The translations under genes were made by a program, and so were the position numbers. 64,000 nt of DNA from the NCBI GenBank assembly GCA_007378955.1, contig VMGY01000001.1, positions 38,804 to 102,803 on the forward strand, read 5' to 3'. Shown here piece by piece: positions 24,370-38,900 of this stretch; the stretch's first letter is position 1; each line of letters starts with the position of its first letter. Under the pieces are notes generated by a model. It searched no databases. It was not told where the DNA came from and was given only the letters and a program-made list of their open reading frames with translations. Origin of the DNA: Parcubacteria group bacterium Athens0714_12 (GTDB taxonomy: Bacteria > Patescibacteriota > Patescibacteriia > UBA2591 > VMGY01).

Positions 24370-25038
24370 CTAGTAATTCGTAAAATAATTGATTTTTGCT
24401 TGAGACCTAAGAGAATTAATTAATAAATTAGCCGCCTCTGACATTTTTTGCTGTTCAATTTGATCTTTAATCTGCGCTTTATAACTATCTTCCTGGCCTT
24501 TGGGAATCTCAACTTTATTATCTTTAATGTATTTTGCCACTTCATCATCAGTAACTTGCACTTGGTCAGCGAGAAGTTTTTCTAATTTTTTTTGAATAAC
24601 AATCTTTTTCTTAAAATTCTCTTGCGTTAAGCCCTGCGCCGCGAGCGCTTGCGATAACGTCATGCCCTGCGCTTCAACTTGATTTTCCACGTTTTTTATT
24701 TCCGCGTCAATTTCATCATTGCTTACCGTAATTCCTTTTTTTAGCACTTCGTCATTAATAAGTTTTTGGGTGATAAGCGCGTCCAGCGCGTTTTTACCCG
24801 ACACGCTTTCAAGCTCTTTAATGACAGCAAACCGGCTGATGGGAGTTCCATTTACCATAGCGGCAATGAACAATCTTTTATAATAAAAAGCGAAAAATCC
24901 GATTAGAACGACCAAAACAACAATCGCCGCAATTTTTATGCCAAAAAGCCTTTGTCTTTTAATCTCTTTTAAATAATTTTCTCGTGTTAGAGGAGATTCT
25001 GTTGTTGTGGGTTGCGTTGTTTTAAAATTTTCATTCAT
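24370..25038 (-). CDS. Membrane-anchored SurA-N/PrsA-like chaperone-domain protein (hypothetical)
   Basis: Has a TM helix and a helical periplasmic-chaperone-like region; the similarity is weak. Confidence 0.35.
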   Translation of the reverse strand: MNENFKTTQPTTTESPLTRENYLKEIKRQRLFGIKIAAIVVLVVLIGFFAFYYKRLFIAAMVNGTPISRFAVIKELESVSGKNALDALITQKLINDEVLKKGITVSNDEIDAEIKNVENQVEAQGMTLSQALAAQGLTQENFKKKIVIQKKLEKLLADQVQVTDDEVAKYIKDNKVEIPKGQEDSYKAQIKDQIEQQKMSEAANLLINSLRSQAKINYFTNY

Positions 25039-25167
25039 AATTAATGTTTTAAAATTATTAATTTAATCGCCGCTCTATTTGTGGCAGTGTATATTAATTA
25101 TTATAGCTCATTGCCTTAAATCTTTCAAGAAAAGGCGCGACGAGATGAACATAATTATCTTAATGGA

Positions 25168-25947
25168 TTAAAAAAGAGTTTTGCGGTTATATTTTCTTTC
25201 TTCCTCGCCGGCTGCCGCGCGATAACGGCAAAAATCGCAATCAGGCGAAGCGCCGGGAATATTGTCGCTCATTAAACATTTGCGCGCTTCAAGTAAAACG
25301 TTTTCAATCCAAGAATCATCGCCTTTATAAGGGATTAATTCAATATCAAATTCTAATTTGGCGTCAAAAGCCTTACAGTCTGTTTTGCCATTGCAATAAA
25401 CAAAATAACCAACCGGCGAAACTTGGTAGCCATTTTGGCGAAAAAGCCATTGATAAATTTCCATCTGCCTCTTATAGCCAATCTGCCAATCCGCGTCCAA
25501 GTTTAACTGCCCTGTTTTTGAAGTCGCTTTGTAATCAACAATGATAAATTCTCCCTTTGGATTAACCCAAAGGTCGTCAATTCCGCCGGTAACAAAAAAA
25601 TTGCTCGGCTTGTGCAAAAAAGCGATTCCGCCGCGCAAAGCGTCTCGCCAAAAATCCAATTCTTTATGCGCCAAAGGCACCGCGTCAAGGCCATAAGTTT
25701 TCATTAAAGGATGGATTGTATTTTTTGCCCGATGAAGGTCAAATTCTTTTTTGAGCAACGCGTCAACCGCGGAATTAAGGGTGAAAGGATAACCCGGCGG
25801 CTGGCCGACGCCCAATCGCCTGTCAAGATAAAAACAGCGCGGACAATTCAAAAATAAATCAATTTTTGAACGGCTTAATCTGAAAGGATATTTTGAATTC
25901 GGGTCAAATAAATTCGATTTTCTTTTAGGGGTATAATATTTTGACAT
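25168..25947 (-). CDS. PD-(D/E)XK nuclease-superfamily protein (Cas4/RecB-nuclease-like) with cysteine clusters
   Basis: 'GIDDLW' and 'IVDYKATSK' fit the D...D/ExK core. Cysteines occur at the N-terminus 'CPRC' and the C-terminus 'CDFC', as in Fe-S Cas4/AddB nuclease domains. Confidence 0.6.
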   Translation of the reverse strand: MSKYYTPKRKSNLFDPNSKYPFRLSRSKIDLFLNCPRCFYLDRRLGVGQPPGYPFTLNSAVDALLKKEFDLHRAKNTIHPLMKTYGLDAVPLAHKELDFWRDALRGGIAFLHKPSNFFVTGGIDDLWVNPKGEFIIVDYKATSKTGQLNLDADWQIGYKRQMEIYQWLFRQNGYQVSPVGYFVYCNGKTDCKAFDAKLEFDIELIPYKGDDSWIENVLLEARKCLMSDNIPGASPDCDFCRYRAAAGEEERKYNRKTLF

Positions 25948-25968
25948 ATGATTATTGAACAGTTAAAA

Positions 25969-26003
25969 TTTGATTGATAATTGATAATTGATAATTGATA
26001 ATT
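25969..26003. repeat. Tandem heptamer (TTGATAA)x~4.5, followed by a GCGATAA-aaaa-TTATCGC hairpin
   Basis: The repeat is visible by direct reading and lies in the intergenic space between the nuclease and helicase genes. Confidence 0.6.
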
Positions 26004-26024
26004 TTCACGTTTTGCGATAAAAAA

Positions 26025-27665
26025 TTATCGCGCGTCAGATTCTTTCAAAAACAGCCGCGCGAGGCGCAGTTCGCGGTAGGAAAAACTTTCGCCGAGAATC
26101 TCGCGGACCACCGTCAATCTCGTATCCCCGGTCTCCTTAAAAACATTTTTTATTAATTCAAACCTTTTGCCCCATGGCCGCAAATATGACAAATCAAGGT
26201 TTTCATCCCGCTCAATTAATTTTTCCAGATGCCCTAAAATCGTATCCTCGGTCAAGCCGCGCTTTTCGGCAATTTCTTTAATGGAAAATTTTTGTAAAAC
26301 TAACATTTCCGTTTCCTCATATGTTGAAACGGATTTTAATTTTTCCGCCGGCGCGACAGATTTTAAAAATTCTTCCTGATTTTTTTCTTTTTCCAATTGG
26401 TTTAATTTTCTTAATCCAATACTAACCATCTCTGACATTCGCATTAATTCTTTATCTAATAATAACACTTCTTCATTGACTTGAAGAGCGATCTGATTCA
26501 AGCCCATCAATTTCAATCCCTCAAATGAGCGGACCCGCGAAAGCGCGACATAACCCATTCCTTCAACAAATGATTTGGAAAGGTCAATTTCCACCGCGTC
26601 CAAGCTCATCCCCTGGCTTTTATGCACGGTGATTGCCCAGGCCAAACGAAGCGGTATTTGGATAATTTCCGCTTTCGCCATCCCCTCTTCTTCTATCCGC
26701 CAGCTTTCCGGGCCGGCGATTATTTCTTTTCCTGTTTTACAAACCCGTACCACGGGAAAACCGTCTTCGTCAAAATCTTCAACTATACCAAGAGTGCCGT
26801 TCACGTAGCCTTTGTCAAAATTATTTTTAACAAACATCACCGCCGCTCCCCTTTTAAGTCGCAATTCCTCCGGCGCAAGACAGTTTTTTTTGAGAAAAGC
26901 CGCCAATTTTTTGTTGCCGCGGCTAGTCGCGAAATATGTTTTCATCTCTCCGCCAAGCGCTTCAAGATTTTTCTTATTGATAATATCAACATCAATATTA
27001 TGCGTGTAAAGTTTGGTCGCGGTAGAAAAATTTCGCGGACTTTTTTGGTATCTTTCTCTTAAAAATGACAATGTCCGCTCTCCCGCCTTATTCGCCCTGA
27101 TGTCGTTTAAGACTTTGATTAAAACGTCATCGCCCTGCCGATACTGCTCGCTTAAATAACAAATCTTTAAATTCATTTCCTGCCATATTTTTGATTTATT
27201 GGCAAAAGTTCTTTCCGTGCTGTTTTTTGAAACCGGTGGCAATTGAAAAAAATCTCCGCAAAGGACGACTTGCATACCGCCGAATGGCCGATTGTCTTTT
27301 TTGAAAGCCCGGCATACTTTATCAACCAAATCCAAATAAAAATAATGAAGCATGGAAACTTCATCGATGATTAAAACTTTGGTTTTTTCAAACCTTTTGG
27401 CGAGATAACGTTTTTTTGAAAGATCGCTGATTTCTCTTTCAGACATACTCTCTTTTATGCCGATTCCCGCCCAAGAATGAATCGTGATGCCATTCAGATG
27501 CGTGGCGGCAATTCCCGTGGAAGCGGTAACGCCGACGCCGACGCCCTTATTTTTTAAAAAATCAATATAAGCGTTAAGCGCGAATGTCTTCCCGCTTCCG
27601 GCCGGTCCAGTCAAAAAAACATTTTTTCCTAATTTTAATATTTCCAACGCCTCTTTTTGTGTCAT
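26025..27665 (-). CDS. Pif1/RecD-like SF1 DNA helicase with a C-terminal helicase-HTH domain
   Basis: Walker A 'GPAGSGKT', Walker B 'VLIIDEVSM', and 'VHKSQGMS' (motif VI-like). The C-terminal HTH reads 'KEIAEKRGLTEDTILGHLEKL'. Confidence 0.8.
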   Translation of the reverse strand: MTQKEALEILKLGKNVFLTGPAGSGKTFALNAYIDFLKNKGVGVGVTASTGIAATHLNGITIHSWAGIGIKESMSEREISDLSKKRYLAKRFEKTKVLIIDEVSMLHYFYLDLVDKVCRAFKKDNRPFGGMQVVLCGDFFQLPPVSKNSTERTFANKSKIWQEMNLKICYLSEQYRQGDDVLIKVLNDIRANKAGERTLSFLRERYQKSPRNFSTATKLYTHNIDVDIINKKNLEALGGEMKTYFATSRGNKKLAAFLKKNCLAPEELRLKRGAAVMFVKNNFDKGYVNGTLGIVEDFDEDGFPVVRVCKTGKEIIAGPESWRIEEEGMAKAEIIQIPLRLAWAITVHKSQGMSLDAVEIDLSKSFVEGMGYVALSRVRSFEGLKLMGLNQIALQVNEEVLLLDKELMRMSEMVSIGLRKLNQLEKEKNQEEFLKSVAPAEKLKSVSTYEETEMLVLQKFSIKEIAEKRGLTEDTILGHLEKLIERDENLDLSYLRPWGKRFELIKNVFKETGDTRLTVVREILGESFSYRELRLARLFLKESDAR

Positions 27666-27756
27666 AATTATAATTATTATCGCGCTTGATATGTAATTAA
27701 TTACTTACATCCATTATACCAAAAACCGTCGTTTACGGCGATTTCTAAAATCTTAA

Positions 27757-27909
27757 ATAATAGATTCTGTGAATTACGAAATGCGTTTTTTAAAACAAAA
27801 ATACGCGGGTAGATTGGAGCCTCTGCTCCAATCTTAGCTAATCTTGCTCCGAGTAGAGGCTCGGAGCTACCCATTTCGTATTTCGTAATTCACAGATAGA
27901 TTATTAATT
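27757..27909. mobile_element. MITE-like mini-element with ~25-bp terminal inverted repeats and two internal GC-rich hairpins
   Basis: The left arm TAATAGATTCTGTGAATTACGAAATG pairs with the right arm CATTTCGTATTTCGTAATTCACAGATAGATTATTA. Inside are the hairpins AGATTGGAGC-ctct-GCTCCAATCT and GCTCCGAG-tagagg-CTCGGAGC. No ORF is present. Confidence 0.5.
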
Positions 27910-28174
27910 TTATTCTTTAATAATTTTTCCATTCAATATAACACATTCAATAAAAAATAATGTTAAATAAGCAAAACTTAGAGCAACCATAAATGAAATA
28001 TTATATTTCAAAGGTATATTCTTATGTATTATTTTTTCATTTCTTATGACTCACGAATTATCTAATGCCAAAACTATATCTCTACTTACCCCAAACTTTT
28101 TTCATTTATCATTGGAGTCCCTTAGATAAGCTAATTTTTTACTAATTTTACCTTTTTTATTTATTGAAAATGTA

Positions 28175-28183
28175 TGTGGATAA
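28175..28183. promoter_or_regulatory. Perfect DnaA-box 9-mer (TGTGGATAA, the reverse complement of TTATCCACA) in the promoter region of the LexA-MTase gene
   Basis: Exact match to the E. coli-type consensus. It sits about 30 bp upstream of the TATAAT at 28214-28219. Confidence 0.4.
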
Positions 28184-28213
28184 CTTATTGTTTTCATTTC
28201 GGTGAATGTTCGG

Positions 28214-28219
28214 TATAAT
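28214..28219 (+). promoter_or_regulatory. Consensus -10 hexamer TATAAT for the LexA-MTase gene, immediately followed by a GATC site
   Basis: 'ggTATAATGATCg' lies 69 nt upstream of the ATG at 28288. Confidence 0.4.
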
Positions 28220-28287
28220 GATCGTATATAATAAATTTAATACTCTCGTCAATCTTCGCCAAGTCTTTGATTGACGCAATCAATAAT

Positions 28288-29760
28288 TTTATGCCTACGC
28301 TTACTAAAAGACAAAAACAAATTTACGATTATATTAAAAGCTATGTAGAAAAAAATGGCCTCTCCCCTACTTTTAATGAAATAAAAAAACATTTCAAATT
28401 GTCGGCTGCTTCAACAGTCCATCAGCACATTGGGGCTTTGGTAGAAAAAGAAATGCTTATTAAAAATAATTACAACTCTCGCGGAATTGAATTAAATAAA
28501 AAAAATAGAAAAGATTTAATCAAAATTCCTCTTGCGGGAACTATTGCCGCCGGCCAACCAATTGAAACGTTCCAAACAAACGAAACAATCACGGTTCCTA
28601 AAAATCTTCTTTCAAAATCCGGCGAGCATTTTGCCCTTAAAGTTAAAGGCGACAGTATGATTGACGAAGGTATTTTTGACGACGACACTGTTATAATCAG
28701 AAAACAAGATACCATTGAAAACGGGGAAACTGCGGTCGCTCTGATAAACGGCAATGAGGTTACATTAAAAAAAATATACAAAGAAAAAAATCGCATCCGG
28801 CTTCAGCCGGCGAATCCAAATTTAAAACCTCTTTTTGTTAAAAATGTTATCATTCAGGGCAAAGTTATCAGCGCTTTTAGAAATATAGAAAAAATTGAAG
28901 AAGAAGATACTATTTTAAAATCTGACGAAAAATCAAAAGGACTTGCGGCAATAGAGCAAAAACATTATTTCAATAGAAATAATTTTGTTTTATACCATAG
29001 CGACTGCGTCTCAATGCTCAATAGTATGAAGGAAAACTCTGTGGATATGATTTTCGCTGATCCGCCTTATCTTCTTTCAAATGGCGGTTTTAGCGTTCAT
29101 GCCGGGCGGCGCGTAAGCGTTGATAAGGGCGAATGGGATAAAAGCAACGGACTTAAAAAAGATTTTGAATTTCATCTTGAATGGATACAAGCCGCGAGGC
29201 GCGTTCTAAAGCCGCACGGAACTATTTGGATTAGCGGCACTTACCATTCCATATATCAATGCGGTTTCGCGGTTCAGGTCGCCAAATTTCATATTTTAAA
29301 CGATATCGCGTGGTTCAAGCCAAACGCTTCTCCGAATTTAAGTTGCCGTTATTTCACCGCAAGCCACGAAACCTTGCTTTGGGCGCGTAAAGATAAAAAC
29401 GCAAAGCATGCTTTTGATTATGATTTGATGAAAAATGGCAACTGGCCGGAAGATCAGCTCAAAAAACCCGGGTTTCAGATGCGTTCGGTTTGGGCGATGG
29501 GAACGCCGAAACGGATTGAAAAAAAATTTGGGAAACATCCAACGCAAAAACCGGAGGATTTATTAAAAAGAATTATTCTCGCGAGTACAAATAAAGACGA
29601 TTTAGTTGTCGATCCATTTACCGGAAGTTCTACGACAGGAATCGCTTCCCATCTTTTAGGAAGGCGCTTTATCGGCATTGATACCGAAAAAAAATATTTA
29701 GATTTATCAATTAAACGATTTGAAGAATTAGAACGTAATTTAAAAAATCCATCAAATTAA
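28288..29760 (+). CDS. Fusion protein: a complete LexA repressor (wHTH + S24 autopeptidase) fused to a beta-class DPPY N6A/N4C DNA methyltransferase
   Basis: The N-terminus 'LTKRQKQIYDYI...GLSPTFNEI...ASTVHQHIGALVEKEML' is the LexA DNA-binding domain. It is followed by 'AAGQPI', the nucleophile 'VKGDSMIDEG' and the general base 'EVTLKKIY'. The C-terminal half carries motif IV 'IFADPPYLL' before motif I 'VVDPFTGSSTTG', which is the beta-class order. The two halves form one uninterrupted ORF. The track starts it at a TTG at 28267; I use the ATG at 28288. Confidence 0.75.
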   Translation, partial: FMPTLTKRQKQIYDYIKSYVEKNGLSPTFNEIKKHFKLSAASTVHQHIGALVEKEMLIKNNYNSRGIELNKKNRKDLIKIPLAGTIAAGQPIETFQTNETITVPKNLLSKSGEHFALKVKGDSMIDEGIFDDDTVIIRKQDTIENGETAVALINGNEVTLKKIYKEKNRIRLQPANPNLKPLFVKNVIIQGKVISAFRNIEKIEEEDTILKSDEKSKGLAAIEQKHYFNRNNFVLYHSDCVSMLNSMKENSVDMIFADPPYLLSNGGFSVHAGRRVSVDKGEWDKSNGLKKDFEFHLEWIQAARRVLKPHGTIWISGTYHSIYQCGFAVQVAKFHILNDIAWFKPNASPNLSCRYFTASHETLLWARKDKNAKHAFDYDLMKNGNWPEDQLKKPGFQMRSVWAMGTPKRIEKKFGKHPTQKPEDLLKRIILASTNKDDLVVDPFTGSSTTGIASHLLGRRFIGIDTEKKYLDLSIKRFEELERNLKNPSN

Positions 29761-29773
29761 ACATGAAAAATAT

Positions 29774-30418
29774 ATGAAAATTATAACTCGCGCAATGGCA
29801 ATAAATAATCTAAAAAAATATATCGGCCAAGATTTACAAAAGTTAGCTTTAAAGTACGGTATTACAACCTATAAAGCTGGAAAACAAAACAAGGGTTGGA
29901 AAGGTCTTATTCTAGAAATACTAGCCGGATTGGAAAACAATATTTCTAAAGCTCCTAATGGCTTATCATACGAATTAAAATCCGTTAGTTCGCATTATAT
30001 AAAAAACAAGCTTGTGCCAAAAGAAACTATGGCGATAACTATGATTAATCCGCAAGAGTTAAAAGCCCATTCTTTTTTTGAAAGCCATTGTTGGGCAAAA
30101 TTAAAATCTCTAATTTTTTGCGCTGTGATGTGGCATGGAAAAAACGCGAAAACATCGGAATTATTAAAAGTCATAAGCTTGGATTTTGCGGAAAATGATG
30201 ATTTAATAAAGGAAGTAAGGGATGATTATGACTTCATACGAAACAAGCTAATTATTAATGGCTTTGACGCATTAACTGGAAAAGATGGGAAATGGATACA
30301 AGCAAGAACAAAAGGTATTGGCGGCATAAATCCTCAAACAGGAAAAAAACGGCCGGTAACTCGCGCGTTTTACGCAAGGCCTATTTTGATAAAAAAATTT
30401 TTTGAAATGGCAAATTAA
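29774..30418 (+). CDS. MutH/Sau3AI-family (GATC-type) restriction endonuclease
   Basis: 'KGWKGLILEILAGL...GLSYELKSV...KETMAITMINPQEL' aligns with the MutH core 'KGWIGVLLEIWLG...LGVELKTIP...ETTFVCVAPL'. The C-terminal 'RAFYARP' matches MutH 'RGFYLKK'. Confidence 0.7.
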   Translation: MKIITRAMAINNLKKYIGQDLQKLALKYGITTYKAGKQNKGWKGLILEILAGLENNISKAPNGLSYELKSVSSHYIKNKLVPKETMAITMINPQELKAHSFFESHCWAKLKSLIFCAVMWHGKNAKTSELLKVISLDFAENDDLIKEVRDDYDFIRNKLIINGFDALTGKDGKWIQARTKGIGGINPQTGKKRPVTRAFYARPILIKKFFEMAN

Positions 30419-30471
30419 TAAACAATAAATATACTTGATATCAAGGTTGAACCTCTATAACTTTAATTTTA

Positions 30472-30510
30472 TTTGGCGCATATTTAAATATGCGCCAAAT
30501 ATATTTTTTA
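30472..30510. terminator. Perfect 28-bp palindrome plus a T-run, terminating the R-M cassette and the convergent minus-strand gene
   Basis: TTTGGCGCATATTTAAATATGCGCCAAA is followed by TATATTTTTT. Confidence 0.65.
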
Positions 30511-30535
30511 GATTTTTTTGATGGCGAATTAACGG

Positions 30536-30889
30536 CTATTTATCTAATTTCGCGAGTTGTTTTTCGGCGAAATTTCCAATGACCGGCAATTTAAATTTTT
30601 CTCCGCTGTACGCTTTGTAAATCAAAACCAGCCAGAGAATTATCGTCAGGGGAGCGAAAGGCAACGCCAAAAAACCGATGAAAGGGATGACCGAGATTAA
30701 AAACAGCCCTAAAAACACCACCAAAGACTGCATCGCGTGGAACCGGACGAATTTATCTTCCTTTTCCAGCAATAAAAATACCACGCCGCTTACAAATCCA
30801 AAAACATAACAAAACGCTCCTTCTATATTTTCATCTAGATTAAGCGCTGTCTTGGATTTTTTCTCGATTTTGCTTTTTTTAGTTTTCAT
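30536..30889 (-). CDS. Small integral membrane protein (DUF4870-like), hypothetical
   Basis: 117 aa with 2-3 TM helices. The 'RFHAMQSL' motif is recalled from memory. Confidence 0.4.
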   Translation of the reverse strand: MKTKKSKIEKKSKTALNLDENIEGAFCYVFGFVSGVVFLLLEKEDKFVRFHAMQSLVVFLGLFLISVIPFIGFLALPFAPLTIILWLVLIYKAYSGEKFKLPVIGNFAEKQLAKLDK

Positions 30890-31000
30890 AATTCCTCCTA
30901 TTAAAAATTAATAATAAATATAATTGATTGCCTTTCCTTTTCAACGGGATTCTTCGTGGAGTTTATCCTGAGCGAAGTGGAAGGGCTTAAAATGACAATT

Positions 31001-31074
31001 TGGCTGCGGGGCAGGGATTCGGACCCCGATACTCGCCTCCAGAGGGCGATGTCCTACCATTAGACGACCCCGCA
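31001..31074 (-). tRNA. tRNA-Gln (anticodon CUG), with CCA encoded
   Basis: The minus-strand read TGCGGGGTCGTCTAATGGTAGGACATCGCCCTCTGGAGGCGAGTATCGGGGTCCGAATCCCTGCCCCGCAGCCA folds as a cloverleaf by hand. It has a 7-bp Watson-Crick acceptor stem with U1:A72 and G73 (bacterial Gln identity), U8, a D-loop containing GG, an anticodon loop CU-CUG-GA, and the T-arm CGGGG/TCCGAAT/CCCTG. Position 55 is C rather than U, which is unusual. Confidence 0.75.
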
Positions 31075-31104
31075 ATGGGTAACTGACAACTTCTAACTAA
31101 CAAC

Positions 31105-32205
31105 CTACAACTTGGAACCTTCACTGATTTCAATTATTGCCAATTCCAAAGGCAGTTGTGGAATTTCAGCATACTCCAAATCACGCCGCGCCTGAATAAA
31201 CATATTAATCATTCGGACTAAATCTTTTAATTCTATTTCTTTGCTTAATAAAATAATTTCCTCATCTTTAACCTTATCCAAACCATAATATATCCCTTTT
31301 GCCTCTTGGTCAATCTTTAAAATCATTAATTTTCGCAAAAATTCAATCAAATTGGAACTGAAATCTTTTAAATCAACGCCCTCTTCCACTAATTTATTAA
31401 TCAAAAAAATCGTTTTTTCTTTCTTCTTGCTTATTAAATTCTTAACAAAATCAATAATTAAATTAATGTCCGAGCGCGGAAAAAATATTTCCGCTTCTTC
31501 ATAAGTGATTTTTTTGTCGCCCAAAGAAAAAATCTGCTGGAGTAAAGTTTCCGCGTCCCTGATACAACCTTCGCTCTGGCCGGCAATTTTTTCCAAAACT
31601 CTATGGTCAATTTCTATATTCTCTTTTTTGGCGATTACTTTTAGCTTTTCCGCTATTTCTTTCAAATTAACTTTTTTAAAATCAAATCTTTGGCAGCGGG
31701 AAATAATTGTTTCCGGCAATTTATGGATTTCCGTGGTGGCTAAAATAAAAATTACATGGCTTGGCGGCTCTTCCAAGGTTTTTAAAAGAGCGTTAAAAGC
31801 TTCCGGGGTGAGCTGATGCGCTTCATCTATCACGAAAACTTTGTATTTAGATTTGGTCGGCGCGACGCGCGCGTGATCGCGCAATTCCCTGATTTCATTA
31901 ATTCCGCGATTGGAAGCGGCGTCAATTTCTATTAAATCCAAATTTCTGTTTCCGGCAATTTCCAGACAAGAACTGCATTTATTACAAGGTTCGTATTCGC
32001 CTTGCTTCCTGTTTTCGCAATTTATCGCTTTTGCCATTAAACGGGCCGTGGTCGTCTTCCCTATTCCCCGAGGCCCGGAAAACAAATAAGCATGGGATAT
32101 TTTCCCTGCTTTTATTTCATTCTGAAGCGTTGTTTTAATCACTTCCTGCCCTTCTATTTCACTGAATTTTTGAGGGCGGTATTTACGGTATAAAGTCGTA
32201 GACAT
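31105..32205 (-). CDS. dnaX: DNA polymerase III gamma/tau subunit, gamma-length (clamp-loader core only)
   Basis: 'YRPQKFSEIEGQE...HAYLFSGPRGIGKTT', a CxxC zinc module, and 'VFVIDEAHQL'. 366 aa with no tau C-terminal domains. Confidence 0.9.
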   Translation of the reverse strand: MSTTLYRKYRPQKFSEIEGQEVIKTTLQNEIKAGKISHAYLFSGPRGIGKTTTARLMAKAINCENRKQGEYEPCNKCSSCLEIAGNRNLDLIEIDAASNRGINEIRELRDHARVAPTKSKYKVFVIDEAHQLTPEAFNALLKTLEEPPSHVIFILATTEIHKLPETIISRCQRFDFKKVNLKEIAEKLKVIAKKENIEIDHRVLEKIAGQSEGCIRDAETLLQQIFSLGDKKITYEEAEIFFPRSDINLIIDFVKNLISKKKEKTIFLINKLVEEGVDLKDFSSNLIEFLRKLMILKIDQEAKGIYYGLDKVKDEEIILLSKEIELKDLVRMINMFIQARRDLEYAEIPQLPLELAIIEISEGSKL

Positions 32206-32211
32206 AAAAGT

Positions 32212-32811
32212 TTAAGCTGATTTTTGTTTGTAAATTACGGTCTTATTTTTGCCGCTATGTTTACCTTGATACAGCGCTTTATCGGCCTCTTCTATTAATT
32301 GTTCTACTGATTGTTCGTCACTTAAAGAAGCGATGCCTAAAGTTATGGTAACATTTATTGAACTGCCTTTCACTTCAATGGTTTTATTGCTGATTATTTC
32401 CCTGATTCTTTCCACTTTTTTAAAAGCGTCAATTTGGTTTGATTTTTCCAAAATAATAAGAAATTCTTCGCCGCCATAACGGGCAATTTTATCCGTAATC
32501 CTGATTTTATTCTTTATTAAACTGCTGACTTTTTTCAAAACCAAATCTCCCGCTTGATGACCATAAATGTCATTTTTCTGTTTAAAATTATCAATATCCA
32601 AAAAAACAATGCTTAACTCGCCTTTCTTGCTCGTTCGGCGATCGCTGTTTCCTCTTATCATGGAAACTTCCTGAAAAATTCTTTTTAATTCCACTTCTAT
32701 ATAGCGGCGATTATAAACTTTTGTCAACGGATCTAAAATAAGCAGATTTTCCAATTGCTCGATTTTTGATTTTAATTCTTTATTTTCTTTTATTAAATTT
32801 TTTTTATCCAC
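32212..32811 (-). CDS. GGDEF-domain diguanylate cyclase with an N-terminal coiled coil
   Basis: The active site 'RYGGEEFLIIL' is intact. Its stop lies 6 nt upstream of the dnaX start. Confidence 0.85.
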   Translation of the reverse strand: MDKKNLIKENKELKSKIEQLENLLILDPLTKVYNRRYIEVELKRIFQEVSMIRGNSDRRTSKKGELSIVFLDIDNFKQKNDIYGHQAGDLVLKKVSSLIKNKIRITDKIARYGGEEFLIILEKSNQIDAFKKVERIREIISNKTIEVKGSSINVTITLGIASLSDEQSVEQLIEEADKALYQGKHSGKNKTVIYKQKSA

Positions 32812-32851
32812 GAAATTTTAATTATATTTTTTGCTTAAAAATGATTTTTTC

Positions 32852-35140
32852 TTAATTTAATTTTGAAATTTCTTTTTCCACGATATTTTTGTCCTTGCCG
32901 TATTTCATACGCGATGATTCTTTTATCTTTTGGCTAATTTTGCCGTCTCCCGGCTCCAAATCAAAGGTTCTCATATTAAAAGCTCTGACTTGCTGATTAT
33001 CTATTAAAAGTTTAACACAAGCGTTAAATTTTTCAATATTAATAAGGTCTTGTTCTGAAAAAATCGGCTGAAACTCTTTGACTAAAATTTCCGCGTCCTC
33101 TATTCCCACTTTAAAAACAATCATTGTGCCGATGGTTCCTAAAACAGCATCCCTGATCTTGGTATCCTGTCCTTTAATAAGTTGGCCTAAATACTGATGG
33201 GCGACAGTTAAATTTAATCTGTATTTGCGCGCCTCTGATAAAATCGTGGAAATATTCTCGGTAATAAAATTTTGGAATTCATCAATATATAAATAAAAAT
33301 CATTTCTTTGCTCCAAGGGCATATTTGCTCTGCCTAAGGCCGCCATTTGCAGCTTTGCCACGATAATCAAACCCAATAAGTTGCTGTTTATTTCGCCGAT
33401 TTTTCCTTTTGACAAATTAACTAATAAAATTTTTCTTTCATCCATTATCCGCCGGAAATTAAAACTGCTGGCCGGCTGGCCGATAATATTCCGCATTACT
33501 TCATTTTCCGCGAATCTGCCGACTTTGCTGATAATATAGCCGTACATTTCTGATTTGTGAAAATCGCTTGTTTTCGCTATTTCTTTTTCCCAATAAAGGC
33601 GCACTTGGGGATTTTGAACTTTTTGCACTTTTACTTTTTGAAATTCCGGGTCTGTGAACAGGCGAGGAATTTCCACTAAAGTGCCGGAATTTTCTTTGTC
33701 TGCCATTAAAGTCAAAAGATTATTGCGCATATGATGCTCAAAAACCGGGCCTAAAATTTCCGGCGGAAACATTTTTTGCCAAATGGCAATCATTTCCTGA
33801 ACCGCGAAATCAACCTCTTGCGGCGTTTTTGCTTCCAGCATATTCAAACCGAGCGGCCGGCTGGTGTCCGAAGGGTCAAAAACAATCACCTCATTTACTC
33901 TTTCTTTGGGAATTCTTTGCAAAATATCTTCCACTAAATCGCCATGCGGGTCAATAACGCATACTCCGTGTCCATTTTTTATGTCCTGAATAGCCATATT
34001 GGCGATTAAAACGCTTTTTCCCGTTCCTGTCATGCCGGCAATATAAATATGCCTTCTGCGGTCATCGTCTTTAATTTTAATTATATTTTCCGCGCCGCGA
34101 TAACTATTTTTTCCTAAAATTATGCCTTCTTGCGCCATATTTGCCGGCGGCGCCGACTTTTTATAAAGCATCCATCGAATATTCGGAGTTTCTAAAGAAG
34201 GCAGAGGCGGATGGAATAAGCTGGCCAATTCTTCGGTATTAAGAATGATTTTCTTGCTTTCATCAAATTTTCTAAAAATAAAATTACTAATCAAACGATT
34301 TTGATTCCTTGGGATAATAGCATTAAAGCTATTTCCCGCTTCATAAATATTAAACTGGGTAAAAGTATTAATAATGCTATCCAAATCTCTTGACGCCATT
34401 TCTTTGCTTTTAGTGGAAACCAAAACTCTGACATTAACCCCTAATCCCATTTTAGACGCCTTTTCTTCCAAATTATTAATAATATTCTCTTCTATTGGCG
34501 AAAGGTGATGAGCTTGCTCTATTTCTTTTTCTTTCAACTTGCTTGGAAAAAAAATTTCTTTCAAATTTTTAAGCAATATCCCTTGCGAAACATTTGCCAT
34601 TGCTTCATTTAAATTTTCTCCTTGCTGCATTTGCGAAGCGATTTTTAATCCTCTTTTATGCCAATTTTGCGAAGTCGGCTTAATTAAAATCTGGATTACC
34701 GCGCTTTCCCCTCTTTTAAACTTGCTTAAAATGCTGGTTAATGAGTTTAAAGGGTTTGACTCCATTTTAAGGTATGTTTTGATGGGGAAAATGCTTTCTC
34801 TTTTTAAAATTAAATCAGCGCCTAAACAAGCGCCTTGGGGTAAAAAAATATTATAATCCCCCACTTCTTCCAATTCTGCCGATGGAAATTGAGCATGCAA
34901 TTGACGTTCAATAAACCTTTTCAGCGCCTCGGGATAAATTAAATAAAAAGTGATTAAATTATCTTTTTCCGCCGCGATCTCCAAGGCTAAATAATCTTTT
35001 TTACTCCAAAAATATTCCTTTTTCTTAATTCCTCCTAAATTGCCGTAAAAAGTCTCCATCAAAGCAATCAAATTTTTTGGCTCTTTTTTGGAAAATTCTT
35101 CGCTTAATTCTTTTGGCAAAAGCAAACGGCTGATAATCAT
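32852..35140 (-). CDS. Large P-loop ATPase of the conjugation/secretion AAA_10 group (VirB4/TraC/TraG-HerA-like)
   Basis: Has a mid-protein Walker A 'HIYIAGMTGTGKS' followed by 'VCVIDPHGD', a Walker B 'FYLYIDEFQNF', and 'EARKYRLNLTVAHQ' (RKxN...Q). It has no TM segment. The call rests on motifs only. Confidence 0.5.
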   Translation of the reverse strand: MIISRLLLPKELSEEFSKKEPKNLIALMETFYGNLGGIKKKEYFWSKKDYLALEIAAEKDNLITFYLIYPEALKRFIERQLHAQFPSAELEEVGDYNIFLPQGACLGADLILKRESIFPIKTYLKMESNPLNSLTSILSKFKRGESAVIQILIKPTSQNWHKRGLKIASQMQQGENLNEAMANVSQGILLKNLKEIFFPSKLKEKEIEQAHHLSPIEENIINNLEEKASKMGLGVNVRVLVSTKSKEMASRDLDSIINTFTQFNIYEAGNSFNAIIPRNQNRLISNFIFRKFDESKKIILNTEELASLFHPPLPSLETPNIRWMLYKKSAPPANMAQEGIILGKNSYRGAENIIKIKDDDRRRHIYIAGMTGTGKSVLIANMAIQDIKNGHGVCVIDPHGDLVEDILQRIPKERVNEVIVFDPSDTSRPLGLNMLEAKTPQEVDFAVQEMIAIWQKMFPPEILGPVFEHHMRNNLLTLMADKENSGTLVEIPRLFTDPEFQKVKVQKVQNPQVRLYWEKEIAKTSDFHKSEMYGYIISKVGRFAENEVMRNIIGQPASSFNFRRIMDERKILLVNLSKGKIGEINSNLLGLIIVAKLQMAALGRANMPLEQRNDFYLYIDEFQNFITENISTILSEARKYRLNLTVAHQYLGQLIKGQDTKIRDAVLGTIGTMIVFKVGIEDAEILVKEFQPIFSEQDLINIEKFNACVKLLIDNQQVRAFNMRTFDLEPGDGKISQKIKESSRMKYGKDKNIVEKEISKLN

Positions 35141-35308
35141 TTATTTGTTTATTATAGACCTGATGCCTAATAACTTTTTCTGCTGCAACTTGAAATTTTG
35201 GCTGCAAATTATTCAGAACTCCTCGCCTTATACTCCGTATAAAGCTTTGTCGTCCTTCATAATTTTCGCTCAAAATTTCCGCGTTTCGCAACGAAAAATT
35301 ATTACGCA
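35141..35308. repeat. 130-bp intergenic element flanked by an imperfect 18-bp inverted repeat (AGACCTGATGCCTAATAA / TTATTACGCATCAGGTCT)
   Basis: The inverted repeats were found by direct reading. The overlapping track ORF 35025..35309 is probably spurious. Confidence 0.45.
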
Positions 35309-35806
35309 TCAGGTCTTTATTTCTAAAATTTTTTTAGTTTTAATTTCAGCTTCTTTTTCTATGTAAAATTTATTTATGCCGGGAATAATTCTAAGCCACT
35401 CTCTTATTAATTCAAATATTCGCCTGAATACTGTTTTTGCCTTTTTTAATAAAGACTCTATTTTTAAGGCCGTTTCTTCGCCTTTGGCCTTGAAACTGTT
35501 TTTAACTGGTTCATCTAAAGAAAAATAAATGCTTTCCAAGTCTTCTTCCAAAATATTCTCTATTTTGCTTAAAGCCGGGCTTTTACTCGGAGTTTTTGAA
35601 GTTTTTTCAATAGAAATCGCGGCTGTGGTTTTTAACGGCTTTTTTTTAACTCCAATTTCTTTTTCTTTCTTGTAATCCCTTGTTTCATTTTCCCGACTAA
35701 GTTCTTCTTCTATTTCAACTGATTCTTTTTCCAAGCTTTTCAAATTTATATCTTCTAATTTTTTTTCTAAATTATTTTTATAAACCATAAATAGATTATA
35801 CCACAA
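35309..35806 (-). CDS. Hypothetical charged/coiled-coil protein
   Basis: 165 aa, K/E-rich, with no TM segment and no recognisable motif. Confidence 0.3.
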   Translation of the reverse strand: MWYNLFMVYKNNLEKKLEDINLKSLEKESVEIEEELSRENETRDYKKEKEIGVKKKPLKTTAAISIEKTSKTPSKSPALSKIENILEEDLESIYFSLDEPVKNSFKAKGEETALKIESLLKKAKTVFRRIFELIREWLRIIPGINKFYIEKEAEIKTKKILEIKT

Positions 35807-35853: not shown

Positions 35854-35862
35854 TTATCCACA
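35854..35862 (+). promoter_or_regulatory. Perfect DnaA-box 9-mer TTATCCACA (box 1) at about -35 of the giant Cys-repeat gene promoter
   Basis: Part of the 11-mer ACTTATCCACA, repeated 63 bp downstream. Confidence 0.4.
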
Positions 35863-35916: not shown

Positions 35917-35925
35917 TTATCCACA
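35917..35925 (+). promoter_or_regulatory. Perfect DnaA-box 9-mer TTATCCACA (box 2) between the -10 (TATAAT at 35891-35896) and the SD/start
   Basis: Same 11-mer ACTTATCCACA, in direct orientation. Confidence 0.4.
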
Positions 35926-35953
35926 ATTGGAAATTGGGACGATGGAGGTTAGA

Positions 35954-38900
35954 ATGAAAAAATTTACTCACTGCTTGAAAAAAATGGGGACGGGAATAAT
36001 CATTTTCGCCGTTCTTTTTATTTTTCAAGCGCAAGCGCAAACACCGGAAACAGATCTTCTGCCCGTGGTAGACGCTCCGCTATCCGGCAATCCGATCATT
36101 ACGGACACGGCAACCGACACGCCCGAAGCAACGAGCGCGCCTGAAACCGGGCTTCTCGCTAAAGAAACAGCTCCCCCGCCTGAAGTCTTGCAAGACACGC
36201 AAATCAGCGCGGAAGATTTAGGCGCGGTGAATGCCAGAATTAAACCGGGAAATTTCTTTCATCCTTTCAAGCAATTCGGCAGGGATGTCCAGGAATTTTT
36301 TACTTTTGACCCGGTTAAAAACGCTGAATTAAAACTCAAACACGCCAACCAGGAATTGTCAGAAATCCAACAGCTCGTGGAAGAAAAAGGCATTGAAAAC
36401 ATTAACCCGAAAATTCTGACTAATTCGGTTGATTGGTTTGAAAACAAAATGGAAAATATTAAAAATGCTTCGGAAAAAATCAAAGGCCAAAAAACTAAAA
36501 ATCCCGAAGGAATTGAGGAATTATTGAATAACCTGACAGATAAACAAATAAAGGAACATAAAATTTTGGAAAAATTCAATGAAGGCATTACTGAAAATAA
36601 AGAAAAAATCGTTGGCGCCGAAGACGCTTTTGCCGCTTTAAAAGATGTCCAAAGCAATGTTCTTAAACATTTCGGTGAAATTTTGACAAATGTAGATGAA
36701 CAGGAAAAAATCCCCGCAAGATTGAGCGCGGTAGCGAACGAGCAGCAAGGAAGCGAATTTAAACTTATAAAAACAACGGAAATTTTGAAAAAACTGCAAG
36801 AACAAGCTCCTGAAGAAACAAAAGACGCGATTAAAAAAGCCCAAACGAAAACCATGGAATTATTACAAGAAGATATGAAAGCCATGCCCGCGGTTGTCAG
36901 AGCGGAAAAATTTAAAACTTACACCAATGCTTTGCCCGGCAATGAAACAATCCAATTAAGCGTTTTTGAAGACTTAAAACAACTACCGAACATCCCGCAG
37001 GATATCTTGAAAAAAATTGAGGAAGTCAAAGAATTCGCCGTTAAAAGATTTGAAGAAAAAGCTATTAAATTTAAACAACCAGAAGTTCAAGAAAAATTTT
37101 TTGAAGATTTGAAAGGCGATTCTTTGGATGACATTATGGTTTTGGAAGAATTGAAAGCGAAAATTACCGCCAAACAGGAATCCCTAAAGAAAAAAGTGGA
37201 ACAAAAAAATATTGAAGGAATGGAAAAATTTAAAAAGAAATTTACCGATGCCCAGTCGCAAGAACAGGCAAAACAATTTGAAAAATTAGTTAAGGAAATG
37301 ACTGCTAATCCAAATCCGAAAACTTTAAAATTAATCAGTGAATTAGAAACTCAAGTCGCCCAGGACCCGGAGAAAAAAGCTTTTATTGAGGAAATAAAAA
37401 CTAAAACCAAAGCGGAAATGGAAACTAAATTCAGAATGGAAGGCGAACGATTTTTTGACCGAATGAGTTCTTTGAATCCGGAAGATATGATGGTCTTCCA
37501 AAAAATGGAGCAAGACCAATTTTACGACCCAATGATGATAGAGCAATTTTCACAACATCAAACTAATCGCTTTAAAGAATATGTCCAAGGAATTGATAAC
37601 ACGGAAAATTTTGACCGCTTTAATAAACGTTTCGGAACAGAAGTGGTGCAAATAATAAAAACAAAAGACACGGAATTCAGCAATGTAATGCAGTTCAAGT
37701 CCCGTAAAATCGCGGAAGCGGAAATGCAATTAAAAGAAAATGAGGCGCGGATGAAAATGGAATTAGAATGGAAAAAATCGGAAAATGATTTTCAGATGAA
37801 ATTAAGGCGAGCGGCTAATGACGAAGCTAAAAAAGCGCTTTATGAAGAAAAAAGGCAAAAAGAATTATCTTTAGTTGACCAAGAATTTGAAACGAGAAAA
37901 AAAATGATGCAAGAAAGAATTAAATTTGACCCTTTCTGCGACGAAATATGCCAGGTGATTCAAAAACAATTTCTTGAGCAAGATTCAAATTACAGAAAAC
38001 AAAATATTATGGAAGACGCGCGGATGAGAGAGTTTGAAATGGAATTAAGGACTCAACCTGCTATGGGTGGCGGCGACCCGTTCCAGGGAAAATGCCAAAG
38101 CCCTGAAACTTGCATGAAATTCTGCAAGGAAAATCTTAATTTTTCCGCTTGCCAAATGCTTGCCCCAATGCAAATGCAAATGCCGCCGCAGACGCAGCCA
38201 GTTGAAGGGCAAATGCCGCAAAATATCTACGCGAACAATCCAATGTATGGACCTCCTCCTTGCCCGCCAGGACAAATTAATATGCCGAAAGGTTCCGGAC
38301 AATGGGTATGCACCGACGACCCTTATCAAAAAATATCAGAAACTTTCAAAAAATGCCCTCCCGGCTATAACTGGAATGACATAAAAGCTTTCTGCGAATT
38401 CAACCAAGTAATGTTCAAAACATCCTGTCCGCAAGGCGAGTATTGGGATGAAGGGAAAAAAACTTGCATCAGGCCGGGAATGCCTCAAGCGTGTCCGCCT
38501 AGTCAATACTGGGACCCTGGAAAACAAGCTTGCGTAAGCTCTGGACAAAATCCTTGTCCGCCTAACCAATATTGGGACGCGGGAAAAAATGGCTGCGCGC
38601 AATACAAAACAGAACAAGCTTGTCCTCAAGGCCAATACTGGGACTCTGGCTTGCAAACTTGCAGAGGACAACAAATAACTCAACCAATGCCTGTTTTCTG
38701 CGGTCCGGGAGAATCTTGGGATAATATTCGCGGCTGTGTCCGTGAAAATTTCCAACAATGCGGTCCAGGCGAATATTTTGACTTCTATGAAAAACGTTGC
38801 AAAACAGACCAATGGAAATCTTGCCCGAGCGGCGAATACTGGGACCAGGGAAGAAATAGTTGTATTAGGGATATGATGGCTCAACCAGTTGAACAATGCG

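What the first reader, a model, noticed from the sequence alone, without database searches (positions are those of the whole stretch)
27700..31074. The R-M cassette looks like an insertion next to the 3' end of tRNA-Gln, flanked by a MITE-like element
The interval between the helicase gene and tRNA-Gln contains a TIR-bearing mini-element at 27757..27909, about 350 bp of ORF-free AT-rich DNA, the R-M cassette, a perfect palindromic terminator at 30472..30499, and a small membrane-protein gene. It ends at the 3' end of tRNA-Gln at 31001. The 3' ends of tRNA genes are classic integration sites. I found no direct repeat of the tRNA 3' end on the far side, so the boundaries remain inferred.
Basis: inference. 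Interest (0 to 1): 0.5.

Follow-up and report, generated by a model that had tools for sequence, protein, structure and literature searches.

The report
LexA-fused restriction-modification operon, not a tRNA island

Summary
Every listed feature is present at the stated coordinates. The tRNA-island reading fails. The membrane-protein gene (DUF4870) next to tRNA-Gln is native: a relative (L168) keeps dnaX, tRNA-Gln and DUF4870 in the same order, with DUF4870 87% identical. I found no repeat of the tRNA 3' end, no recombinase gene, and no k-mer or codon-usage deviation. GATC is depleted across the whole window (observed/expected 0.31).

The hairpin element is MITE-like. It has 20-nt terminal inverted repeats and an exact 5-bp flanking duplication (TAGAT). 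Its 13-nt arm core recurs at other sites in this genome and in two other CPR (Patescibacteria) genomes, none next to an R-M gene. It lies only on one side of the cassette, upstream of the pif1 promoter.

The cassette (28175-30501) has its own promoter, gene pair and terminator. The first gene fuses a complete LexA (DNA-binding domain plus self-cleaving S24 peptidase) to a DpnA/CcrM-like adenine methylase. The second is a MutH/Sau3AI-like nuclease, so the target is probably GATC. At least 120 CPR proteins share the fusion. They sit in different neighbourhoods and pair with different nucleases, so the module moves over evolutionary time. Whether it was inserted here is unresolved, because no contig from a close relative spans the site.

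The parts
26025..27665 (-). Pif1-family helicase gene (left flank)
   Evidence: Pfam PIF1 4.6e-42 plus HTH_40. The best relative anywhere is only 67% identical.
27713..27721 (-). Likely pif1 promoter with an extended -10 (TGGTATAAT on the - strand). It lies between the element and the pif1 ATG.
   Evidence: Read from the sequence. Inference. It implies the element is upstream of the promoter, not in the 5' UTR.
27761..27901 (.). MITE-like element: 5-bp duplication TAGAT (27761-65 and 27897-901), terminal inverted repeats 27766-85 and 27877-96, and two internal hairpins
   Evidence: The 13-nt core TGAATTACGAAAT is invariant in 7 arms from 3 genomes. The L018 copy has AAGAT on both sides. No Rfam match even at E<=1.
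27902..28174 (.). AT-rich, ORF-free spacer; not alignable to the closest cassette relative
   Evidence: GC about 0.26-0.28. Homology with L081 begins only at 28175.
28175..28183 (+). Perfect DnaA-box-like 9-mer TGTGGATAA. The extended box TGTGGATAAC ends 29 nt before the -10.
   Evidence: The same box sits at the same 29-nt spacing upstream of the fusion genes in L081, L082 and L083, and inverted in L068.
28196..28223 (+). Candidate LexA operator: direct repeat ATTTCGGTg-aATGTTCGGT with a 10-nt period. It overlaps the -10 TATAAT (28214-19) and is followed by GATC (28220-23).
   Evidence: Promoter scan gives 10/12. The operator-like repeat is conserved in L081 and L068, and as TTTCTAc-N3-TGTTCTA in L082 and L083. 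Patescibacterial LexA is reported to use a direct-repeat motif (PMC7739468). Binding is inferred.
28291..29760 (+). LexA (winged HTH plus S24 self-cleaving domain) fused to a beta-class N6-adenine DNA methyltransferase
   Evidence: Pfam LexA_DNA_bind, Peptidase_S24 and N6_N4_Mtase. NCBIfam lexA equivalog scores 184 bits against a cut-off of 111. The Ala-Gly cleavage site and the Ser/Lys dyad align with E. coli LexA. Best PDB matches are CcrM 2.4e-59, LexA 1.2e-34 and DpnA 7e-28. At least 120 full-length homologues exist.
29774..30418 (+). MutH/Sau3AI-like restriction endonuclease (probably GATC)
   Evidence: Pfam MutH 3.8e-9. PDB MutH 7.5e-7. NCBIfam Sau3AI 1.9e-12 and MutH 3.8e-12, both below the equivalog cut-offs.
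30470..30501 (+). Intrinsic terminator of the R-M operon (14-pair stem followed by a T run)
30536..30889 (-). DUF4870 membrane-protein gene: native neighbour of tRNA-Gln, not cargo
   Evidence: Pfam DUF4870. It is 87% identical and in the same position after tRNA-Gln in L168.
31001..31074 (-). tRNA-Gln (CTG)
   Evidence: ARAGORN. Rfam 56.3 bits.
31105..32205 (-). dnaX (DNA polymerase III gamma/tau), right-flank backbone
   Evidence: Pfam. Relatives at 76-81% identity share the TraD-like and dnaX genes.

Best explanation
The interval is a mosaic of three independent things, not one inserted island.

(1) Native backbone. The TraD-like gene, GGDEF, dnaX, tRNA-Gln and DUF4870 form a conserved stretch. 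The gene touching the tRNA 3' end belongs to the host.

(2) A self-contained 2.3-kb Type II R-M operon at 28175-30501. One promoter drives a LexA-methyltransferase fusion and a MutH/Sau3AI-like endonuclease, and the operon ends in its own terminator.
- Likely mechanism (inferred): the LexA domain represses its own promoter through a direct-repeat operator that overlaps the -35/-10 region.
- RecA-stimulated self-cleavage at the conserved Ala-Gly site would detach the DNA-binding domain. That would de-repress the operon after DNA damage, including damage from self-restriction.
- The methylase marks GATC adenines and the nuclease cuts unmarked GATC.
- The module belongs to a large CPR family that is mobile over evolutionary time. 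In this genome it looks long-resident and compositionally assimilated.

(3) A 131-nt non-coding MITE-like element with 20-nt inverted ends and a 5-bp target duplication, upstream of the pif1 promoter. It belongs to a dispersed intergenic repeat family that has nothing to do with the R-M genes.
For: Backbone:
- L168 has the TraD-like gene, dnaX, tRNA-Gln (CTG) and DUF4870 (87% aa) in order, with a contiguous 74% nucleotide alignment over window 31101-30627.
- L289 has dnaX followed by tRNA-Gln.

Not an island:
- No att repeat.
- No recombinase.
- k-mer z between -0.5 and +0.3; codon z of -0.2 for the fusion.
- GATC observed/expected 0.31, third lowest of 256 tetramers.

Operon:
- Domain calls.
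- LexA catalytic and cleavage residues are conserved.
- Promoter and terminator.
- Operator-like direct repeat and DnaA-like box are conserved upstream of five of six fusion genes.

Family and mobility:
- At least 120 three-domain homologues at 57-91% identity.
- Different neighbourhoods: after rpoC, after Fic, beside RadC, beside pif1.
- Nuclease partners differ: MutH-like, PDDEXK_11 or TaqI-like.
- The 88% nucleotide match to L081 covers only 28175-29747.
- The stand-alone methylase (71% identical) sits in a Dam-type MTase + this MTase + PDDEXK_11 nuclease cassette next to a large serine recombinase on an IMG/VR contig. This also supports GATC specificity.

Element:
- Inverted ends, duplication and fold.
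- Arms at L018 (pair, with AAGAT duplication), L167, L292 and L293.
Against: - No contig from a close relative spans the space between DUF4870 and pif1. Absence of an insertion event here is therefore not shown, only absence of its usual signatures.
- The REase gene is mildly atypical in codon usage (z = +1.7), but so are the flanking pif1 and PDDEXK genes.
- GATC density inside the cassette (4 in 2.2 kb) is about twice the window average. This is not significant.
- The methylase half scores higher against CcrM (GANTC) than against DpnA (GATC), so GATC specificity is indirect.
- LexA-operator binding, self-cleavage and SOS coupling are all inferred.
- Only one complete element copy plus two solo arms were seen in about 84 kb of this genome, so high copy number is not shown.
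Confidence: 0.65

Rival explanations
1. Everything from the element to the DUF4870 gene (27757-31000) is one island that integrated site-specifically into the 3' end of tRNA-Gln.
For: The interval does end at the tRNA 3' end. It contains an R-M system, which is typical island cargo. The region downstream of dnaX differs among relatives L166, L167 and L168.
Against: DUF4870 is conserved next to tRNA-Gln in L168 at 87% aa identity, higher than dnaX at 76%. There is no att repeat, no integrase and no compositional deviation. The element family occurs at sites unrelated to R-M genes.
Confidence: 0.05
2. The R-M operon alone (about 28175-30501) was acquired horizontally. It was inserted between DUF4870 and the pif1 upstream region by illegitimate or homologous recombination, without an integrase, and has since taken on host composition.
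For: The module has variable neighbourhoods and nuclease partners. The methylase half is unusually conserved (mean 75% identity, against 54% for the LexA half and about 55-60% for dnaX at similar ranks). A stand-alone homologous cassette sits on a recombinase-bearing viral contig. Relatives with dnaX 76-81% identical show other arrangements after dnaX.
Against: No junction scars, flanking repeats or compositional signal were found. Host-wide GATC depletion argues against a recent arrival. No empty site has been observed.
Confidence: 0.25
3. lexA is ancestral at this spot, divergent from pif1. A methylase-nuclease module was captured in place by fusion to the 3' end of lexA. The left half of the 'cassette' would then be native and only the right half foreign.
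For: L068 has a LexA fused to a different methylase (24% identity) plus a TaqI-like nuclease, also divergent from pif1. L074 has a stand-alone lexA 1.6 kb from pif1. The LexA half diverges like a housekeeping gene while the methylase half does not. Stand-alone versions of the methylase exist.
Against: lexA lies within 10 kb of pif1 in only about 5 of 160 loci, near the chance expectation. The closest fusions (L081-L085) are not next to pif1. The whole fusion, including its promoter, is 88% identical to L081, so the fusion predates this genome.
Confidence: 0.12
4. The hairpin element is not a transposon relic. It is a functional structured RNA or a protein-binding regulatory module for pif1.
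For: Two complete copies both lie 60-100 nt upstream of pif1 genes that are only 53% identical, with identical arm cores but unrelated interiors. The fold is very stable. A weak promoter-like site (27936-27907) and a small hairpin with a T run (27739-27725) bracket it on the pif1 strand.
Against: Exact 5-bp direct repeats abut both complete copies. Solo arms occur upstream of murB, between parB and topA, and after dnaX. It is absent from about 160 other pif1 loci. There is no Rfam match. It lies upstream of the likely pif1 promoter. Stem sequence is conserved rather than covarying.
Confidence: 0.15

Closest known systems
Type II R-M systems in which the methyltransferase carries an N-terminal HTH and represses its own promoter (SsoII/Ecl18kI-type; reviewed in PMC3874152)
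   Same: A DNA-binding domain is fused to the N-terminus of the methylase. A candidate operator overlaps the promoter of the M gene. The nuclease gene follows in the same unit.
   Different: Here the fused regulator is a complete LexA, with the S24 self-cleaving domain, the Ala-Gly site and the Ser/Lys dyad. Repression could therefore be relieved irreversibly by RecA and DNA damage. I found no description of this architecture in the searched literature.
DpnII / Sau3AI / MboI-type GATC restriction-modification systems
   Same: The methylase is beta-class and DpnA-like (PDB 5hek, 7e-28). A 71% identical stand-alone relative sits in a DpnM-like + DpnA-like + nuclease cassette. The nuclease is MutH/Sau3AI-like. 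GATC is strongly depleted in the host.
   Different: There is only one methylase and no Dam-type partner. The nuclease is a 214-aa single MutH-like domain rather than the 475-aa Sau3AI. The best methylase match is CcrM (GANTC). Specificity is untested.
tRNA-targeted integrative genomic islands
   Same: An R-M cassette lies within 600 bp of a tRNA 3' end, in a region that varies among relatives.
   Different: There is no integrase, no att duplication and no compositional shift, and a conserved host gene lies between the tRNA and the cassette.
Bacterial MITEs / dispersed intergenic palindromic repeats
   Same: Short (131 nt) and non-coding, with 20-nt terminal inverted repeats, a 5-bp flanking duplication, solo ends elsewhere in the genome, related copies in other genomes, and an assembly break at an arm (L167).
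   Different: Copy number looks low. Interiors of the two complete copies are unrelated. No parent transposase was identified. The arms share the heptamer TTTCGTA with tandem arrays elsewhere in the genome.
Canonical LexA SOS repressor
   Same: It passes the NCBIfam lexA equivalog cut-off, keeps the cleavage and catalytic residues, and has a candidate autoregulatory operator of the direct-repeat type reported for Patescibacteria.
   Different: It carries a 270-aa DNA methyltransferase at its C-terminus and is co-transcribed with a restriction nuclease. Whether it is also the cell's global SOS repressor is unknown. No second lexA lies in the 64-kb window.

Membership tests
tRNA-targeted integrative island | Integrase or recombinase gene within or beside the island | tested here: not met
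   Pfam on every gene from 24370 to 35140 gives a SurA-like protein, PDDEXK, Pif1, LexA-MTase, MutH, DUF4870, DnaX, GGDEF and a T4SS coupling protein. No integrase or transposase.
tRNA-targeted integrative island | Direct repeat of the tRNA 3' end at the far boundary (attL/attR) | tested here: not met
   12-25-mers from 31001-31050 were searched with mismatches on both strands between 15 and 45 kb. No hit fell in 27-31 kb.
tRNA-targeted integrative island | Foreign DNA starts directly at the tRNA 3' end | tested here: not met
   DUF4870 follows tRNA-Gln in L168 at 87% aa identity, with a contiguous nucleotide alignment.
tRNA-targeted integrative island | Compositional or codon deviation from the host | tested here: not met
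   Tetranucleotide distance z between -0.5 and +0.3. GC within the host range. Codon z of -0.2 for the fusion and +1.7 for the REase.
tRNA-targeted integrative island | Empty site in close relatives | tested here: inconclusive
   The contigs from relatives (L166-L168) end before the junction. The best pif1 relative is 67% identical.
MITE | Terminal inverted repeats | tested here: met
   20 nt, 19/20 complementary; 0 matches in 100 shuffles.
MITE | Target-site duplication | tested here: met
   TAGAT abuts both ends. The L018 copy has AAGAT at both ends.
MITE | Short, with no coding capacity | tested here: met
   131 nt. The only overlapping ORF (57 aa) has no Pfam hit.
MITE | Multiple copies per genome | tested here: inconclusive
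   One complete copy plus two solo arms in about 84 kb of this genome.
MITE | Ends shared with an autonomous transposon | not tested
   No transposase was seen in any locus held. A viral 14-mer scan gave only single chance hits.
Type II R-M system | Methyltransferase with catalytic DPPY and SAM-binding FxGxG motifs | tested here: met
   PF01555 at 7.8e-59. The motifs FADPPY and DPFTGSSTTG are visible in the translation, in beta-class order.
Type II R-M system | Adjacent cognate endonuclease | tested here: met
   A MutH/Sau3AI-like ORF starts 13 nt downstream, on the same strand and with a shared terminator.
Type II R-M system | Defined recognition sequence (GATC proposed) | not testable with these tools
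   Indirect only: the nuclease family, GATC observed/expected 0.31, and the homologue in a Dam-type cassette. The CcrM similarity leaves GANTC open (observed/expected 0.65-0.75).
LexA repressor | LexA HTH plus S24 domain above the family threshold | tested here: met
   TIGR00498 scores 184 bits against a cut-off of 111. PDB LexA 1.2e-34.
LexA repressor | Ala-Gly cleavage site and Ser/Lys catalytic dyad | tested here: met
   IAAGQP, GDSM and TLKK align with E. coli A84-G85, S119 and K156.
LexA repressor | Operator in its own promoter; RecA-dependent cleavage | tested here: inconclusive
   A conserved 10-nt-period direct repeat overlaps the promoter in five of six fusion loci. Binding and cleavage need experiments.

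The most novel reading that the evidence does not exclude
The LexA-methylase fusion may be a widespread CPR device that wires a GATC restriction-modification system to the RecA/SOS signal. In one version, self-inflicted or external DNA damage cleaves the repressor domain and boosts methylase and nuclease expression, giving a damage-sensing R-M controller. In a more speculative version, the LexA core docks on RecA-coated single-stranded DNA and so delivers a DpnA-like single-strand methylase to incoming transforming DNA, protecting it from the cell's own nuclease. In some lineages this fusion could be the only LexA, tying the whole SOS regulon to the methylation machinery.
Probability: 0.3. Interest if true: 0.7.

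Novelty: new variant of a known kind. Interest (0 to 1): 0.4.

Why it matters
As a mobile-element claim the finding is ordinary. It is another case where being near a tRNA does not mean integration at it.

The value lies in what the cassette turned out to be. A complete, apparently cleavage-competent LexA is fused to an R-M methylase. The fusion is conserved in at least 120 CPR proteins, has a conserved operator-like promoter, and pairs with interchangeable nucleases. CPR bacteria mostly lack CRISPR and are thought to rely on R-M systems and on natural competence. A direct link between SOS/RecA sensing and restriction-modification would bear on how these reduced genomes balance defence against DNA uptake. 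It can be tested with a few recombinant proteins and with methylome data.

Tried and rejected
- Genome and metagenome scans with Pif1 for an empty site: the best relatives are 66% and 61% identical and share no synteny with dnaX or tRNA-Gln. Uninformative for this question.
- Protein searches with dnaX and Pif1: dnaX relatives at 76-81% identity were found, but their contigs stop before the junction. Pif1 reaches only 67%.
- att search around the tRNA: nothing. The weak 16/20 hit at 44.6 kb is in the wrong orientation and distant, and I treat it as chance.
- Exact 14-mer scan of viral contigs with the arm: 120 or more single, unpaired hits, consistent with chance.
- Rfam at gathering thresholds and at E<=1: no family matches the element.
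- The element as a pif1 5'-UTR leader: rejected. An extended -10 promoter lies between it and the ATG, and solo arms occur at unrelated genes.
- The arms as LexA boxes: they share only CGAAATG with the putative operator, and the repeat spacing differs (7 against 10 nt). Left unsupported.
- Other LexA-box-like direct repeats in the window: none. The single half-site at 36984 is inside a coding region.
- The AT-rich spacer with a DnaA box as a replication origin: only one box is there, and local gene orientation is convergent at 24.2 kb, not divergent. Rejected.
- lexA-pif1 linkage as a conserved pair: about 5 of 160 loci, near the chance expectation.
- Flanking repeats around the cassette: the 26-nt inverted pair 27903/30903 (81%) and the direct pair 30417/30906 (87%) are AT-rich low-complexity matches among 121 such pairs. 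Not taken as junctions.
- Phage collection: no full-length fusion.

Full report
**Source and layout.** The window comes from a CPR bacterium. Identical proteins are named 'Parcubacteria group bacterium Athens1014_10'. GC is 0.355.

The features around the finding are listed below.

| Coordinates | Strand | Feature |
|---|---|---|
| 26025-27665 | - | Pif1-type helicase |
| 27766-27896 | . | long inverted-repeat element |
| 27902-28174 | . | AT-rich spacer |
| 28291-29760 | + | 489-aa ORF (LexA-methylase fusion) |
| 29774-30418 | + | 214-aa ORF (nuclease) |
| 30470-30501 | + | palindromic terminator |
| 30536-30889 | - | 117-aa DUF4870 membrane protein |
| 31001-31074 | - | tRNA-Gln (CTG) |
| 31105-32205 | - | dnaX |

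**Observation.**
- The 20-nt arms match 19/20 and have no counterpart in 100 shuffles.
- The element folds with z of about -9.5 on either strand.
- The terminator is a 14-pair stem followed by a T run.
- I also confirm there is no repeat of the tRNA 3' end anywhere between 15 and 45 kb.

**What the 'R-M cassette' is.**
- *The first ORF is a three-domain fusion.* It combines a LexA DNA-binding domain, an S24 peptidase domain and an N6/N4 methyltransferase.
- *The LexA part is a genuine LexA.* It exceeds the NCBIfam lexA equivalog cut-off, at 184 against 111 bits. It aligns end to end with E. coli LexA and keeps the Ala-Gly cleavage site and the Ser/Lys dyad.
- *The methylase part is beta-class.* The best solved relatives are CcrM (2.4e-59) and DpnA (7e-28).
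- *The second ORF is MutH/Sau3AI-like*.
- *GATC is the likely target.* GATC is the third most depleted of all 256 tetramers in the window, at observed/expected 0.31. GANTC is only mildly low, at 0.65-0.75.
- *A stand-alone relative also points to GATC.* A methylase 71% identical to this one lies between a Dam-type (D12) methylase and a PD-(D/E)XK nuclease, in a DpnII-like layout, next to a large serine recombinase on an IMG/VR contig.
- GATC is therefore the probable target but is untested.

**The fusion is a family, not an accident.**
- The best 120 hits all cover at least 86% of the query at 57-91% identity. All but two carry all three domains. They come from Parcubacteria, Woesebacteria and other CPR groups.
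- Across them the methylase half averages 75% identity and the LexA half 54%.
- Upstream of the gene, five of six loci share three things:
  - a DnaA-box-like TGTGGATAAC (29 nt before the -10 in four loci, inverted in L068);
  - a 10-nt-period direct repeat, ATTTCGGTgaATGTTCGGT here and TTTCTAc-N3-TGTTCTA in others;
  - a TATAAT.
- A direct-repeat LexA motif has been reported for Patescibacteria (PMC7739468, citing Sanchez-Osuna et al. 2017). I therefore read the repeat as the autoregulatory operator. This is an inference.
- I found no paper describing a LexA-methylase fusion.

**Is the interval an island at tRNA-Gln? No.**
- *Native neighbour.* Relative L168 (dnaX 76% and TraD-like 82% identical) has dnaX, an extra small ORF, tRNA-Gln (CTG) and then DUF4870 at 87% identity. 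The DNA aligns contiguously with window 31101-30627. The gene touching the tRNA 3' end is therefore native.
- *Deeper linkage.* A more distant genome (L289) also keeps dnaX followed by tRNA-Gln.
- *No recombinase.* None lies among the genes at 24.4-35.1 kb.
- *Composition.* Tetranucleotide distance for windows covering 27.7-31 kb is within -0.5 to +0.3 SD of the window mean. Codon usage of the fusion gene is typical at z = -0.2. The REase (+1.7) is no more unusual than pif1 (+1.1) or the PDDEXK gene (+1.8).
- *GATC.* Depletion across the whole window argues for long exposure to GATC restriction.

**Is the cassette nevertheless non-ancestral here? Possibly.**
- Fusion genes sit after rpoC (L083), after a Fic gene in a defence cluster (L082), beside radC (L084) and beside pif1 (L068 and the window).
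- The nuclease partner is MutH-like (window, L084/85), PDDEXK_11 (L081, L083) or TaqI-like (L068).
- The closest cassette (L081, 91% aa) matches the window at 88% nucleotide identity from 28175 to 29747 only. That span covers the promoter plus the methylase gene, and a different nuclease follows.
- The region after dnaX differs in each of three relatives.
- None of their contigs reaches the DUF4870/pif1 junction. Pif1 itself has no relative above 67% identity. The empty-site test could not be done.

**The 'MITE-like' element.**
- The structural description holds, and it is strengthened by an exact 5-bp direct repeat (TAGAT) abutting both inverted ends.
- A second complete copy lies 60 nt upstream of the pif1 gene of L018 (Pif1 53% identical). 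It has the same arm core, an unrelated interior and AAGAT on both sides.
- Single arms occur in three more places:
  - 40 nt after dnaX in L167, where the contig breaks;
  - upstream of murB in the source genome outside the window;
  - between parB and topA in the source genome outside the window.
- The core TGAATTACGAAAT is invariant in all seven arms.
- The arms contain the heptamer TTTCGTA. This heptamer also forms tandem arrays at 39855-39945, upstream of a MiaB-like gene, and in the parB/topA spacer. Such arrays were seen only in this genome among 2.3 Mb of held loci, and in 1 of 20 shuffles.
- None of these sites adjoins an R-M gene, and the cassette has the element on one side only. The element is thus a member of a dispersed repeat family and unrelated to the cassette.
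- An extended -10 (TGGTATAAT, 27721-27713 on the - strand) lies between it and the pif1 start. It is therefore not a 5'-UTR leader. There is no Rfam match.

**Mechanism proposed.**
- *Shown:* the domain architecture, the catalytic residues, the operon structure, the conserved promoter elements and the GATC depletion.
- *Inferred:*
  - LexA-domain autorepression at the direct repeat;
  - RecA-stimulated self-cleavage that releases repression of both genes after DNA damage, including damage from self-restriction;
  - GATC m6A protection with cleavage of unmethylated GATC.
- *Speculative:* delivery of a DpnA-like single-strand methylase to RecA-coated incoming DNA.

**Verdict.** The tRNA-island interpretation is largely refuted. 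The MITE-like call is supported, but the element is unconnected to the cassette. The noteworthy item is the LexA-fused R-M operon, a new variant of regulator-fused Type II systems.

Noticed in passing
window 28175-28183; also 35854-35862, 35917-35925 and 54910-54918: Perfect DnaA-box 9-mers (TGTGGATAA). One sits at a fixed 29-nt distance from the -10 of the LexA-methylase promoter, and the same is true in L081, L082 and L083. Two more lie in the divergent intergenic region at 35.8-35.9 kb. This could be DnaA control of the operon or a lineage-specific promoter element.
   Followed up: partly
window 39855-39945; L293 1648-1734: Tandem and inverted arrays of the heptamer TTTCGTA/TACGAAA lie upstream of a MiaB-like gene and in the parB/topA spacer. 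The two loci share a 27-nt identical stretch (AAATTAAAATTATTTCGTAGTTTCGTA). The same heptamer is embedded in the arms of the MITE-like element.
   Followed up: partly
window 37500-39500: This is the strongest tetranucleotide deviation in the whole window (distance up to 0.58 against a mean of 0.26). It falls inside a 1283-aa ORF (35927-39778) whose only Pfam hit is DUF5667. The ORF is probably a repetitive surface protein.
   Followed up: no
whole window: Other short palindromes are also strongly avoided: TCGA 0.21, CTAG 0.27, CTNAG 0.32 (CTCAG 0.38) and GGCC 0.51. This suggests a history of several further restriction specificities. A TaqI-like (TCGA) nuclease partners a LexA-methylase fusion in L068.
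   Followed up: no
L068 1775-3985: A second kind of LexA-methylase fusion (502 aa). Its LexA half is 52% identical to the window's, and its methylase half only 24%. It is convergent with a TaqI-family nuclease and divergent from pif1. LexA has therefore been joined to more than one methylase lineage.
   Followed up: partly
L295 1876-5555 (IMG/VR contig): A DpnII-like three-gene GATC cassette: a D12 Dam-type methylase, a beta-class methylase 71% identical to the window's, and a PDDEXK_11 nuclease. It sits directly beside a large serine recombinase and is a candidate mobile form of the module.
   Followed up: partly
L084 11462-11890; L083 8750-9178: A conserved 142-aa ORF with no Pfam match is inserted between the fusion methylase gene and the nuclease gene in some relatives. 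It is absent from the window.
   Followed up: no
L166 2893-3471: In the relative with the closest dnaX (81%), the DNA after dnaX has no tRNA. It is filled with copies of short palindromic repeats such as GATGACACTGCTGTGTCAGTT and GATCCTGAAACAAGTTCAGGAT.
   Followed up: no
L167 1-3200 compared with window 1-187, window 35300-35600 and L292: In relative L167 the block (165-aa gene, TraD-like gene, dnaX) directly follows mraY. In the source genome mraY is followed by ftsW, murG, murC and murB, and the block lies about 35 kb away. A large rearrangement separates the two genomes. An arm of the repeat family sits at the dnaX end of the block in L167, and a solo arm sits upstream of murB in the source genome.
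   Followed up: partly
window 25168-27665: pif1 is paired with a PD-(D/E)XK nuclease gene. Both have mildly atypical codon usage (z +1.1 and +1.8). pif1 has no relative above 67% identity, although dnaX, TraD-like and DUF4870 have relatives at 76-87%. The helicase side of the junction may be the less ancestral one.
   Followed up: partly
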